52,194 bases of DNA from Acutalibacteraceae bacterium (lineage in GTDB: Bacteria > Bacillota > Clostridia > Oscillospirales > Acutalibacteraceae): assembly GCA_051880775.1 (NCBI GenBank), contig JBJEOP010000065.1, positions 1-52,194 on the forward strand. Reading direction: 5' to 3'. Each line of letters begins with the position of its first letter. The first letter of the stretch is position 1. The position numbers and the translations under genes were made by a program. This document shows, one piece after another, positions 26,086 through 40,302 of the stretch. The notes below the pieces were generated by a model, which saw only the letters and a program-made list of their open reading frames with translations, made no database searches and was not told where the DNA came from.

Positions 26086-26162
26086 CGCGGAGTGGAGCAG
26101 CTAGGTAGCTCGTCGGGCTCATAACCCGAAGGTCGTTGGTTCAAATCCAGCCTCCGCAACCA
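26086..26162 (+). tRNA. Initiator tRNA-Met (anticodon CAU), encoded CCA end
   Basis: A 77-nt cloverleaf. The acceptor is CGCGGAG/CTCCGCA with a C1:A72 mismatch. The anticodon stem has three consecutive G-C pairs (GGG-CUCAUAA-CCC). The T-loop reads GGTTCAAATCC. Confidence 0.92.
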
Positions 26163-26172
26163 CAAATTTATG

Positions 26173-26211
26173 AAAAACGCTTGTAAATGTAACAGTTTAC
26201 AAGCGTTTTTT
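26173..26211 (+). terminator. Intrinsic terminator after the tRNA
   Basis: Stem AAAAACGCTTGTAAA / TTTACAAGCGTTTTT followed by T. Confidence 0.8.
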
Positions 26212-26381
26212 GTTATATATAACGAAATTTTTAAAAATTGTACCAGTAGTGAGTAATAATCAGAAATTCATTACCCTTAAAATACCCATATTGCTTGAAA
26301 ATTTTTATAAACAACAGGAGATAAAATATTTTTTTCTTTCTGATAGTAAACAAGGAGTCGCTATTATATCAGAGTAACTCC

Positions 26382-26759
26382 TTGTTTCAGTCTGTCGAAA
26401 ATGTTTGCGACGGTGCAAAAATACCGACAGTCAAACAAAAAGAAATCCGTTATCTTACAAAAGATGAACAAGTCAGAATTATGGAAAACACAAAAACCGA
26501 AAGACTTGGTTTTGCTGTGGAACTTGCTCTTGCAACAGGAATGAGAGAAGCGGAAATATGCGGTCTTAAATGGTCTGATATAAAATGGAACAATGATAGT
26601 TGTGTCATAAATATTAAACGAATCATTTCCCGAATTTCTCATAGCAAGAATGAGCGTAACAATAAGAAAAATATAAAAAAGACTCTTGTTGTTGAAGCTG
26701 AAACAAAAACCGAAAAAAGCAAAAGAGAAACAGCTTTTACAAAAAGCATTGGAAGTTGA
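26382..26759 (+). pseudogene. Tyrosine-recombinase (phage integrase family) fragment containing only the start of the catalytic domain
   Basis: RYLTKDEQVRIMENTK..RLGFAVELALATGMREAEICGLKWSDI is box I with the catalytic Arg, followed by TKTEKSKRE. There is no N-terminal SAM-like domain upstream and no HxxR/Tyr region downstream. Confidence 0.65.
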
Positions 26760-27279
26760 AGACATACATTTGCTTGAAAGGCACAACAAACGCTATACTT
26801 CATTGGCTGATTATGACAATCTGAAACAAATTGCAAAACAGCTTGGTGTAAAGCCTGAGTTTCTTATAATTGACAAAGAACAGCTTGCAAAGTTGAATGA
26901 AGAAAAAGACAGATTTGTTGTCTTGCCGACAAAGGACGGTAAAATTCGCCTTGCGTTTCTTCCACAGAACAAAGAGTATATTTTTAATTTGCTTTATCCT
27001 GAAAAGAAACAGAATAAAGAAGATGTTTTCTCGGTCAACCGAAATTCAAAGGTAAATACAAGATTGAAGTCAGAAGTATTACTCGGCGGTCAGAAAATGT
27101 GTTACAGGACACTTACCAAAAATCAGGTTGAACAACTCTATTCTGAACAGGACACGAAAGAACTTTTTGCAGCCTTTAATAAAAACACACAAGATTACAA
27201 TGTTGCATTTAAAGATTGTGATGAAGAAAAGATTGATATTGTTCTGAGCGGAAAAAATACAGTCAAAAGACAAAGATAA
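26686..27279 (+). CDS. Hypothetical protein (197 aa), possibly a remnant
   Basis: ORF only. It overlaps the integrase fragment in another frame, has no recognisable motifs, and ends 10 nt from the convergent hsdR stop. Confidence 0.3.
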   Translation: MLLKLKQKPKKAKEKQLLQKALEVEDIHLLERHNKRYTSLADYDNLKQIAKQLGVKPEFLIIDKEQLAKLNEEKDRFVVLPTKDGKIRLAFLPQNKEYIFNLLYPEKKQNKEDVFSVNRNSKVNTRLKSEVLLGGQKMCYRTLTKNQVEQLYSEQDTKELFAAFNKNTQDYNVAFKDCDEEKIDIVLSGKNTVKRQR

Positions 27280-27289
27280 TATTAAGTTT

Positions 27290-38884: not shown

Positions 38885-38920
38885 GAGGACGCACATTTTT
38901 AACTGGCTGCGTCCTCTTAT
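38885..38920 (+). terminator. Terminator-like hairpin after the aminotransferase gene
   Basis: Stem GAGGACGCA / TGCGTCCTC followed by TTATTAT, a weak T-run. Confidence 0.55.
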
Positions 38921-38933
38921 TATCACAAAAGAT

Positions 38934-39015
38934 GTCGGAACGCTGTCCCGAACCCTGCAAGGGCTGCTCGCCCTTGACCCCGGCAGGGGTATGATACCCC
39001 TGCACCCGCAATTTT
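38934..39015 (-). repeat. GC-rich triple-hairpin intergenic repeat, copy B (inverted relative to copy A)
   Basis: The reverse complement begins AAAATTGCGGGTGCAGGGG...CCCCTGCC.GGGTCAAGGGCGAGCAGCCCTTG, as in copy A. The third hairpin has a different sequence but still pairs (TCGGGAC-AGC-GTTCCGA). Confidence 0.85.
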
Positions 39016-39051
39016 AAACAGAAACAGTATCATAAAAAGAAGGTAAATGTT

Positions 39052-40182
39052 ATGAATTTTAATTATTCACTTCCCGTAAATCTTATGTTCGGAAAGGGAA
39101 AAACCGATATGGTAGGAACGGTCTGCAAGGACTATGGCAAAAAAGTACTTGTTGTAACAGGCGGAAACAGCACAAAAAAATCAGGTCTGCTTGATAAGGT
39201 TATTACTAAATTAAAAGAAAACGATGTTGAATCAGTAATATTTGACAAGGTTACACAAAATCCGCTTACCACAACCGTTTATGACGGGGTTGAACTTGCA
39301 AAAAAAGAAAGCTGCGATATGATACTCGGTGTTGGCGGCGGTTCTATTATGGACGCAGCAAAAAGCATTGCATTCTGTATGAAAAATGACGGCGATATTT
39401 CAGACTATATATTCGGCTTGAAGCAAAGCGAAAAAGCAATGACTATTATCCTTATTCCTACCACTTGCGGAACGGGCAGTGAGGGAAACCAGATTGCCGT
39501 TCTGACAAATCCCGAAACCAAGGACAAAAAGGCACTTTATACAATGAATATCTTGCCGAGTGTTTCAGTCATTGACCCCGATGTAATGAAAACAATGCCA
39601 AAGCATATTCTGTCATCAGTAGGCTTTGACGCATTTACTCATTCATTAGAGGCTTATACATCAAAGAAATCAAATCCGCTGACTGATATTCAGGCTTTGC
39701 TTGCAATAAAGCTTCTTGCAAAAAATCTTCCTGCACTTATTCAGAATTATGAAAATGACGATGCGTGGGAGGCTGTAAGCCTTGCATCTACTCTCGGCGG
39801 TATGGTAATAGGTGTTGCGGGTGTTTCAGCGGCACACGGTATGGAACATCCTGCGTCAGGATTAAAGAATATTGTTCACGGCAGAGGTCTTGCGGCACTT
39901 ACACCTATTATTGTTGAAAGGTCTGTATCATCACTTCCCGAAAAGTTTGCAGAGGTTTCAAAAATACTCGGCGGTAAGGACGAAAACGACTGTGCCGACA
40001 GCATAAGGCAATTTTTGAAGTCGATTGACCTTGAAGTGAAGCTGGGTGATTTGGGCATTACTCACGATGATGTGGATTGGATGACCGACAACTGTATGAA
40101 AATATCAATCGGCAACCTCAACAATGCACCAAAGGTTTTTGACAAAACAGAGGTTTCACAAATTTATCACGAGGCAATCTGA
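39052..40182 (+). CDS. Iron-containing (group III) alcohol dehydrogenase
   Basis: GVGGGSIMDAAKSIA is the NAD-binding motif. The metal-site histidines are in ...DAFTHSLEAY... and ...AAHGMEHP.... The protein is 376 aa. Confidence 0.85.
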   Translation: MNFNYSLPVNLMFGKGKTDMVGTVCKDYGKKVLVVTGGNSTKKSGLLDKVITKLKENDVESVIFDKVTQNPLTTTVYDGVELAKKESCDMILGVGGGSIMDAAKSIAFCMKNDGDISDYIFGLKQSEKAMTIILIPTTCGTGSEGNQIAVLTNPETKDKKALYTMNILPSVSVIDPDVMKTMPKHILSSVGFDAFTHSLEAYTSKKSNPLTDIQALLAIKLLAKNLPALIQNYENDDAWEAVSLASTLGGMVIGVAGVSAAHGMEHPASGLKNIVHGRGLAALTPIIVERSVSSLPEKFAEVSKILGGKDENDCADSIRQFLKSIDLEVKLGDLGITHDDVDWMTDNCMKISIGNLNNAPKVFDKTEVSQIYHEAI

Positions 40183-40258
40183 GGTAAATATATTATTTTC
40201 TAATCGGAAAACGATGTTTTTATCTGTATCTGAATTATAAAATTGCGAAGATCGATTC

Positions 40259-40302
40259 CTCATAACACGAATATTGTTGATTCAAATCCATTCTCCGCAA
40301 CC
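40259..40302 (+). repeat. Degenerate direct repeat of the 3' half of the initiator tRNA-Met (att-like remnant)
   Basis: CTCATAACACGAATATTGTTGATTCAAATCCATTCTCCGCAACC versus tRNA CTCATAACCCGAAGGTCGTTGGTTCAAATCCAGCCTCCGCAACC: 37/44 identical with no gaps. The 5' half of the tRNA is absent. Confidence 0.8.

What the first reader, a model, noticed from the sequence alone, without database searches (positions are those of the whole stretch)
26086..40302. Initiator tRNA-Met plus an 84%-identical 44-nt direct copy of its 3' half delimit a 14-kb segment carrying an integrase relic and the R-M/TIR operon
Positions 40259-40302 align without gaps to tRNA positions 26118-26161, from the anticodon loop to the acceptor end, at 37/44 identity. 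The copy is followed by a strong terminator (40307-40352), as expected for a displaced original tRNA 3' end. A tyrosine-recombinase fragment lies 220 nt from the intact tRNA. This is the classic attL/attR signature of tRNA-targeted island integration. There is one tension. The right half of the segment (34.4-40.2 kb) looks like ordinary metabolism: the ABC transporter, aminotransferase and alcohol dehydrogenase. It also contains a copy of the GC-rich repeat that occurs outside the segment at 16205. So either the island is old and ameliorated, or only the left part (about 26.2-34.0 kb) is recent cargo, or the remnant records an earlier tandem integration.
Basis: partly seen in the sequence, partly recalled or inferred. 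Interest (0 to 1): 0.65.

Follow-up and report, generated by a model that had tools for sequence, protein, structure and literature searches.

The report
Decayed initiator-tRNA island at a variable locus
An initiator tRNA gene and a decayed copy of its 3' half bracket 14 kb of accessory DNA that looks like an old, dead integrated island, an ordinary kind of feature, except that related bacteria carry a tRNA-Arg gene at this spot instead.

Summary
tRNA-fMet lies at 26086-26162. A direct 37/44 copy lies at 40259-40302, running from the first base of the anticodon loop to C75. It is the only such match in the window (E 5e-9). All 7 differences are GC->AT in the copy, so it is a decaying fragment. 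A hairpin of -28 kcal/mol follows it. An internal tyrosine-integrase relic lies 220 nt after the tRNA.

The island reading is partly supported. The shape is that of an anticodon-loop tDNA island, but old and dead.

The interval 25929-40447 is accessory. Relatives at 86-94% nucleotide identity have only tRNA-Arg(ACG) between the same flanking genes, or tRNA-Arg plus other cargo. Three conspecific contigs (97%) keep the R-M side (each ends inside hsdM) but have deleted the metabolic operon, the fragment and the hairpin.

No empty site was found with tRNA-fMet followed by the 40307 hairpin: none at this locus, and none in 185,579 species genomes. The tRNA-fMet is therefore not native here, and the whole unit replaced tRNA-Arg.

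The operon is a widely conserved module. Its codon usage matches the flanks, and it carries a lineage-specific repeat. In one relative it lies 2 kb upstream of an identical tRNA-fMet, which I cannot explain.

This is an ordinary feature of low interest.

The parts
25929..40447 (.). Variable (accessory) interval. Homology to every relative stops here on both sides.
   Evidence: blastn of L001, L058, L010, L053, L055, L063 and L064 against the window. Left homology ends at 25920-25943, after the terminator of the 326-aa gene. Right homology resumes at 40443-40459, 0-16 nt after the stop of the NYN gene.
26023..26051 (+). Promoter of the tRNA (TTGACA-17-TATACT with TG, 11/12)
   Evidence: The promoter region is homologous to that of the identical tRNA-fMet in L017 (0 of 1000 shuffles reach the score). 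It is not homologous to the tRNA-Arg promoter of relatives (113 of 1000).
26086..26162 (+). Intact initiator tRNA-Met(CAT) gene; the attL side in the island reading
   Evidence: ARAGORN and Rfam RF00005 at 61.8 bits. The initiator features were read directly from the sequence.
26170..26211 (+). Terminator hairpin of the tRNA followed by a T-run
   Evidence: -21.3 kcal/mol, z -7.3
26382..26870 (+). Tyrosine-integrase relic, an internal part of the catalytic domain. It lacks the N-terminal domains and the catalytic-Tyr segment, and probably has a frameshift near 26756.
   Evidence: PF00589 positions 2-86 of 172, E 8.9e-12. PHROG_1 E 4.5e-18. Three-frame reading. Bridging the frameshift extends the match to positions 2-124 for only +0.9 bit. 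No close homologue in the 5.8-billion-protein set.
26755..27279 (+). ORF of about 175 aa with no family match. Its first part may be the degenerate continuation of the integrase.
   Evidence: GC3 0.32.
27290..30355 (-). Type I restriction subunit HsdR, intact
   Evidence: Pfam HSDR_N, SWI2_SNF2 and T1RH-like_C. PADLOC REase_I at 1016 bits.
30374..31048 (-). TIR-domain gene embedded in the R-M operon (PADLOC candidate PDC-S35)
   Evidence: PF10137 E 1.9e-36. PDC-S35 E 1.7e-97 over the full length. GC3 0.20.
31108..32235 (-). Type I specificity subunit HsdS
   Evidence: GC3 0.22.
32219..33724 (-). Type I methyltransferase HsdM
   Evidence: Present at 95-96% nucleotide identity in the conspecific contigs L055 and L057.
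34016..40182 (+). Conserved metabolic module: a leader, then SBP, permease, ABC ATPase, cytidylate-kinase-like protein, class-III aminotransferase and Fe-ADH
   Evidence: Pfam. The same six genes occur in about 35 Oscillospiraceae/Acutalibacteraceae loci. Homology to Pseudoruminococcus massiliensis runs from 34016 to 40178 at about 82% nucleotide and 77-96% amino-acid identity.
38944..39015 (.). GC-rich palindromic repeat inserted in the aminotransferase-ADH spacer
   Evidence: Absent from that spacer in all other operon loci. A copy lies next to the NYN gene in relative L058.
40259..40302 (+). Decayed 3' fragment of the initiator tRNA gene (C32 to C75); the attR side in the island reading
   Evidence: 37/44, the only such match in the window. 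All 7 differences are GC->AT in the fragment, and they break G53 and T-stem and anticodon-stem pairs. ARAGORN does not call it a tRNA, and the stretch has no tRNA-like fold.
40307..40352 (+). Strong hairpin plus T-rich tail
   Evidence: -28.3 kcal/mol, z -5.7

Best explanation
The 44-nt copy is the displaced 3' fragment left when a tyrosine-integrase element integrated into an initiator tRNA gene. The crossover was in the anticodon loop, which is the 'A' class of attachment sites in the Islander survey. The element supplied a new 3' half plus the 26170 hairpin. The old 3' half plus the 40307 hairpin was pushed to the far end.

The island is old and no longer mobile. Its integrase is reduced to an internal fragment, and the displaced fragment has decayed by AT-biased mutation. 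What survives between the two ends is an intact type I R-M operon with an embedded TIR (PDC-S35) gene and a six-gene transport/aminotransferase/alcohol-dehydrogenase operon.

The whole unit, including the tRNA-fMet gene and its promoter, sits at a hypervariable locus between a dlt-like operon and a NYN-domain gene. The ancestral occupant of that locus in this genus is tRNA-Arg(ACG). The unit was therefore either assembled elsewhere and installed here as a block, or it followed an unseen earlier swap of tRNA-Arg for tRNA-fMet.

Shown: the repeat, its exact limits, the direction of its decay, the integrase relic, the accessory status of the interval, and deletion of the operon in conspecific strains. 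Inferred: the integration itself, the crossover position, and how the unit came to replace tRNA-Arg.
For: - The repeat is real and unique in the window.
- It starts at the first base of the anticodon loop and ends at C75. In Islander, 3760 of 3919 islands have a 3' tDNA fragment and 2083 have an anticodon-centred site (PMC4383910).
- The fragment is in direct orientation, and the integrase relic lies next to the intact tRNA in the same orientation.
- All 7 differences are GC->AT in the fragment. My estimate of the chance of this is about 8e-4, from 24/44 GC positions. It fits unconstrained decay in a 39% GC genome.
- The Jukes-Cantor distance of the fragment is 0.18 on one lineage. Four-fold-site divergence is 0.02-0.07 to conspecific strains and 0.4-0.6 to congeners, so the event is old.
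- The interval is missing from L058, L001, L010, L053, L054, L056 and L072. None of them has the fragment.
- TIR, hsdS and the 175-aa ORF have GC3 of 0.20-0.32, against 0.40 in the flanks.
- There is only one fragment and one integrase relic, so a single island suffices.
Against: - No empty attB was seen. At this locus, relatives have tRNA-Arg.
- tRNA-fMet followed by the 40307 hairpin stem has 0 matches in the GTDB species genomes.
- No intact relative of the integrase or of the island was found, so the target specificity of this integrase is untested.
- The operon inside the interval matches the flanks in codon use (RSCU r 0.91, against 0.89 between the two flanks).
- The operon is a widespread module. 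In L017 it lies 2 kb upstream of a 100% identical tRNA-fMet with a homologous promoter. The simple model does not predict this.
- The left junction (326-aa gene to tRNA-fMet to integrase relic) is seen only in this contig.
Confidence: 0.6

Rival explanations
1. The fragment is a deletion relic of a second, once complete tRNA-fMet gene that lay downstream of the metabolic operon, as in L017 (operon, aspS, tRNA-fMet). A deletion removed aspS, the promoter and the 5' half of the tRNA. No site-specific recombination made the fragment.
For: In L017 the same operon is followed by aspS and then a tRNA-fMet that is identical over 73 nt. Its promoter is homologous to the window's. In the window the fragment lies 76 nt after the ADH stop, in the same orientation.
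Against: - The 5' limit falls exactly on the first base of the 7-nt anticodon loop. That is about a 1 in 10 chance for a random deletion end.
- The 76-nt ADH-to-fragment spacer shows only marginal similarity to the ADH-aspS spacer of L017 (16 of 500 shuffles reach the score).
- None of about 35 other operon loci has the fragment or a tRNA-fMet downstream.
- This reading leaves the adjacent integrase relic unexplained.
Confidence: 0.15
2. The interval is a composite. The fragment marks an att site, but the operon is not original island cargo. It was inserted later into the island, or the block was pieced together by several recombination events at a hot spot. The interval between the two att sites is therefore not a single element.
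For: - The locus is hypervariable, with at least six different contents between or beside the same flanking genes.
- Composition splits the interval: TIR and hsdS are deviant, the operon is not.
- The operon module has sharp homology limits at 34016 and 40178.
- Conspecific strains lose it as a unit.
Against: There is no second tDNA fragment, integrase, transposase or flanking repeat at the R-M/operon junction. Composition has little power here, because donor and recipient are probably from the same family.
Confidence: 0.2
3. The 44-nt match is a chance similarity or an assembly artefact.
For: The window comes from a metagenome-type assembly, and tRNA genes are common places for misjoins.
Against: E is 5.5e-9, with no other match near that level. 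The right junction (ADH, fragment, hairpin, NYN gene) is reproduced 100% in a separate Logan contig, L005. The 77-nt tRNA is shorter than typical short reads (my own knowledge; the read length of this assembly was not checked), and it is joined to unique sequence on both sides.
Confidence: 0.03

Closest known systems
tRNA-gene-integrated genomic islands as defined by Islander (Hudson, Lau and Williams 2015, PMC4383910), anticodon-centred 'A' attachment class
   Same: An intact tDNA at one end. A same-orientation 3' fragment at the other end, starting in the anticodon loop and running to the 3' end of the gene. A PF00589 integrase next to the tDNA. Accessory cargo, absent from relatives.
   Different: The integrase is only an internal relic. 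The fragment is 16% diverged. No empty site with the same tRNA was found. At this locus, relatives carry a different tRNA gene (Arg-ACG), so the tDNA itself appears to have arrived with the island.
Type I R-M operons with an embedded accessory defence gene (PADLOC candidate PDC-S35, TIR domain of the CAP12/Pycsar-effector type)
   Same: The gene order hsdM-hsdS-TIR-hsdR on one strand, all reading frames intact. The TIR protein matches PDC-S35 over its full length (E 1.7e-97).
   Different: Nothing unusual was seen. The function of PDC-S35 is only a candidate in the source database. Its frequent embedding in R-M loci is from my own memory and was not tested here.
Variable defence/accessory hot spots between conserved core genes
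   Same: The same two flanking genes bracket different cargo in different strains: redox genes plus LysR (L001); AAA_14/DUF4143 plus nuclease, DUF87 and dynamin-like genes (L072); a kinase/NB-ARC-like gene (L054).
   Different: Here one of the variants also swaps the resident tRNA gene.

Membership tests
tDNA-integrated genomic island (Islander criteria) | Intact tRNA/tmRNA gene at one end | tested here: met
   tRNA-Met(CAT) at 26086-26162
tDNA-integrated genomic island (Islander criteria) | Fragment of the same tDNA, in the same orientation, at the other end | tested here: met
   40259-40302, 37/44, direct orientation, E 5.5e-9
tDNA-integrated genomic island (Islander criteria) | Fragment limit falls at a canonical crossover sublocation (anticodon loop, or T-loop/acceptor junction) | tested here: met
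   Identity begins at C32, the first base of the anticodon loop, and ends at C75. The classes are as described in PMC4383910.
tDNA-integrated genomic island (Islander criteria) | Tyrosine integrase gene inside the interval | tested here: inconclusive
   A PF00589 match above the Pfam cut-off is present (45.6 bits). It is only an internal relic, without the N-terminal domains or the Tyr segment.
tDNA-integrated genomic island (Islander criteria) | Related genomes show the uninterrupted target tDNA at the same locus (empty site) | tested here: not met
   The interval is absent from relatives, but the locus holds tRNA-Arg(ACG), not tRNA-fMet (L058, L063, L001). tRNA-fMet followed by the 40307 hairpin has 0 hits in the GTDB species genomes.
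tDNA-integrated genomic island (Islander criteria) | Excision or circular form, or integrase activity on the att sites | not testable with these tools
   This needs PCR or read-level data. A negative result is expected, given the relic integrase.
Bacterial initiator tRNA | C1/A72 mismatch, three G:C pairs closing the anticodon stem, A11:U24 | tested here: met
   Read from the sequence returned. The criteria come from established knowledge.
Type I restriction-modification system | hsdR, hsdS and hsdM all present and intact in one operon | tested here: met

The most novel reading that the evidence does not exclude
The unit is a cassette that travels with its own complete, promoter-equipped initiator tRNA gene at one end and a 3' tDNA fragment at the other. 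It displaced the resident tRNA-Arg gene at a hot spot. This would be island-linked swapping of whole tRNA genes, not integration into a resident tRNA. The recurring link between this tRNA-fMet and the same metabolic operon in L017 could reflect capture of chromosomal flank by such an element.
Probability: 0.1. Interest if true: 0.45.

Novelty: new member of a known kind. Interest (0 to 1): 0.25.

Why it matters
The result mainly helps annotation. It marks 25.9-40.4 kb as accessory DNA in an uncultured Acutalibacteraceae species. It explains why an intact type I R-M/TIR defence operon and a conserved metabolic operon sit together. It also shows that the locus turns over quickly between strains.

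There is a small methodological point too. A textbook attL/attR signature can persist at a place where the target tRNA is not native. 'tRNA plus fragment' alone therefore does not prove that integration happened at that locus.

Tried and rejected
- **Empty attB.** A pattern for the tRNA-fMet 3' end followed by the 40307 hairpin stem gave 0 hits in genome contigs. At the locus itself I found only tRNA-Arg alleles.
- **Related tRNA-fMet loci.** Searching with a promoter-plus-tRNA pattern returned only L017 and two distant Bacillota MAGs, which were uninformative.
- **Intact homologues of the integrase relic.** None turned up in the 5.8-billion-protein set. Phage hits were at most 45% identical over half the relic.
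- **The 26.2-34.0 kb part in plasmids and phages.** Only generic type I R-M matches appeared, at about 68%.
- **Metagenome scan with the NYN protein.** It returned two distant loci.
- **Exact look-ups.** The 326-aa gene and the TIR protein were not on record, probably because their start codons were called differently.
- **Intergenic homology, hairpin region against L001 and L010.** None was convincing. A 14/16 match has E 0.066.
- **Intergenic homology, ADH-downstream spacer against L017.** The result was marginal (16 of 500 shuffles).
- **Recent horizontal transfer of the operon from Pseudoruminococcus.** I rejected this as unproven. Proteins are 87-96% identical (SBP 77%), but the DNA is only about 82% identical. 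A release-factor-3 search could not place P. massiliensis on the core-gene scale.
- **Second tDNA fragment (tandem islands).** None was found.
- **Rfam.** There was no match for the fragment or hairpin region, or for the operon leader.
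Full report
**1. The observation**

The window holds a single tRNA gene, tRNA-Met(CAT), at 26086-26162 on the + strand (Rfam tRNA at 61.8 bits). 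Its sequence shows the initiator hallmarks: a C1/A72 mismatch, A11:T24, and GGG/CCC closing the anticodon stem. I read these; the criteria are established knowledge. A near-consensus promoter precedes it (TTGACA-17-TATACT). A hairpin of -21.3 kcal/mol with a T-run follows it.

Positions 40259-40302 align without gaps to 26118-26161 at 37/44. No other 44-mer on either strand reaches 26/44. blastn-short gives E 5.5e-9, against 1.8 for the next hit.

The identity block begins at the first base of the anticodon loop (C32) and ends at C75. Upstream of C32 nothing matches.

All seven differences are G or C in the tRNA and A or T in the copy. They destroy G53, two T-stem pairs and one anticodon-stem pair. 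The copy is therefore the unconstrained, decaying partner.

A hairpin of -28.3 kcal/mol (z -5.7) with a T-rich tail follows the copy at 40307-40352.

**2. What lies between the two ends**

- **Integrase relic (26382-26759).** It matches only profile positions 2-86 of 172 of the catalytic domain. Bridging a frameshift near 26756 extends the match to position 124, for less than one extra bit. The N-terminal domains and the tyrosine segment are gone, and no close homologue exists in the protein collection. The enzyme is dead and old.
- **Defence operon (minus strand).** Next comes an intact type I R-M operon in the order hsdM-hsdS-TIR-hsdR. The TIR protein is a full-length match to the PADLOC candidate PDC-S35.
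- **Metabolic module (34016-40182).** It has a leader and six genes: a solute-binding protein, a permease, an ABC ATPase, a cytidylate-kinase-like protein, a class-III aminotransferase and an Fe-alcohol dehydrogenase.

**3. Comparative evidence**

The flanks are conserved: a dlt-like operon ending in a 326-aa gene on the left, and a NYN-domain gene plus a P-type ATPase on the right. Homology to every relative stops at about 25929 and resumes at 40443-40459.

Between the same flanks, relatives carry the following:

| Locus | Nucleotide identity to window | Content at the locus |
|---|---|---|
| L058 | 86-90% | 523 bp: tRNA-Arg(ACG) with its own promoter and terminator, plus a copy of the GC-rich repeat |
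| L063 | 94% | The 326-aa gene runs straight into tRNA-Arg (contig ends there) |
| L001 | 88-91% | Aldo-keto reductase, two flavodoxin-like genes, a LysR regulator, then tRNA-Arg |
| L010/L002, L053, L054, L056, L072 | 84.7-94.7% (L072 not measured) | Other contents, several defence-like |

None of these carries tRNA-fMet or the fragment. tRNA-Arg is therefore the ancestral occupant, and the window's 14.5 kb replaced it, together with its tRNA-fMet and promoter.

Three conspecific contigs from different samples (L055, L057, L073; about 97%) join the NYN gene to a 140-bp internal piece of the first operon gene (34876-35015). They then continue through the operon leader into hsdM. They are deletion derivatives of the window's arrangement. 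They kept the R-M side (each contig ends inside hsdM) and lost the operon, the fragment and the hairpin.

An independent contig (L005) reproduces the window's right junction exactly.

**4. The metabolic operon**

The same six genes occur in about 35 loci from Oscillospiraceae and Acutalibacteraceae. The closest are Pseudoruminococcus massiliensis and RUG11102. Five of the six proteins are 87-96% identical (the solute-binding protein 77%), but the DNA is only about 82% identical. This indicates strong purifying selection, not recent transfer.

Codon usage matches the flanks (RSCU r 0.91). TIR, hsdS and the 175-aa ORF are clearly AT-richer at third positions (GC3 0.20-0.32, against 0.40 in the flanks).

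The GC-rich repeat in the aminotransferase-ADH spacer is absent from that spacer in every other operon locus. It does occur elsewhere in this genus. The operon has therefore been resident long enough to pick up a lineage-specific repeat.

No other operon locus has the tDNA fragment.

One locus does not fit the simple model. In L017 the operon is followed by aspS and then, 2 kb downstream, a tRNA-fMet that is identical over the 73 nt before the contig ends. Its promoter is homologous to the window's.

**5. Age**

The fragment's distance from the tRNA is 0.18 (Jukes-Cantor), accumulated on one lineage. Four-fold-site divergence of the flanking genes is as follows:

| Compared with | Four-fold-site divergence |
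|---|---|
| Conspecific strains | 0.02-0.07 |
| L056 | 0.20-0.29 |
| Congeners | 0.4-0.6 |

With only seven substitutions the estimate is loose. It still places the event well before the diversification of the sampled strains, which fits the ruined integrase.

**6. Interpretation**

The form of the repeat is that of a tDNA-integrated island. Islander uses exactly this principle. It reports 3760 of 3919 islands with a 3' fragment and 2083 with an anticodon-centred site (PMC4383910).

I therefore read the fragment as the displaced 3' end left by an anticodon-loop integration into an initiator tRNA gene, with the R-M/TIR operon and the metabolic operon as surviving cargo (confidence about 0.6).

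There is no empty site with tRNA-fMet and the 40307 hairpin: none at this locus, and none in 185,579 species genomes. Either the island-plus-tRNA unit was formed elsewhere and installed here as a block, or an earlier unseen step put tRNA-fMet here.

**7. Rivals**

- The fragment may be a deletion relic of an L017-like arrangement of operon, aspS and tRNA-fMet (0.15). The exact anticodon-loop boundary and the lack of spacer homology weaken this.
- The interval may be a composite in which the operon joined later (0.2). There is no second fragment or integrase.
- Chance or misassembly is very unlikely (0.03).

**8. Verdict**

This is a real but ordinary feature: a decayed genomic island at a fast-turning accessory locus in an uncultured Acutalibacteraceae species. 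The only unusual aspect is the replacement of a resident tRNA-Arg by a unit that carries its own tRNA-fMet. Interest is 0.25.

Noticed in passing
window 34113-34365: The operon leader holds three tandem hairpins, each followed by a T-run. Each begins with the box GACAAWGRBGTC: 3 matches in the window, all here, against 0.04 expected. The same box-plus-hairpin recurs upstream of the solute-binding gene of the same operon in other genera (L013-L016, L024, L035, L050), with stem changes that look compensatory. No Rfam family matches. It may be an undescribed attenuator or antiterminator target.
   Followed up: partly
window 16177-16308 and 38944-39015; L058 7414-7544: A GC-rich palindromic intergenic repeat. 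The core is about 75 nt. The unit is about 130 nt when the AT-rich arm TATTTATCGTTAAAATAGTGGAT is included. Copies occur in the window and in a congener next to the NYN gene. It looks like a REP- or MITE-like family specific to this genus.
   Followed up: partly
L055 8593-8643 (also L057, L073): The deletion variants carry about 51 nt of unmatched sequence between the NYN gene stop and the retained 140-bp fragment of the solute-binding gene. The origin of this filler is unknown.
   Followed up: no
L072 1707-10904; L054 11412-19851; L001 14777-16488: In relatives, the neighbourhood of the NYN gene holds other defence-like cargo. L072 has AAA_14/DUF4143 ATPases, an Endonuclea_NS_2 nuclease, a DUF87 ATPase and a dynamin-like GTPase. 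L054 has a 1015-aa kinase/NB-ARC-like protein, with conjugation genes on the other side. The locus behaves as a defence-island hot spot.
   Followed up: no
window 26005-26105: Rfam 'Staphylococcus sRNA 774' just reaches its gathering score (49.5 against 48 bits, E 0.0025). The match covers the tRNA promoter and the first 20 nt of the tRNA. This probably reflects a tRNA-leader-derived model, not an sRNA.
   Followed up: no
window 21533-25873: A dlt-like operon: an AMP-binding enzyme, a 74-aa carrier protein, an MBOAT acyltransferase and a 326-aa protein with no Pfam match. The last gene is the least conserved of the four (84-88% amino-acid identity, against 93-97% for the AMP-binding and MBOAT genes).
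   Followed up: no
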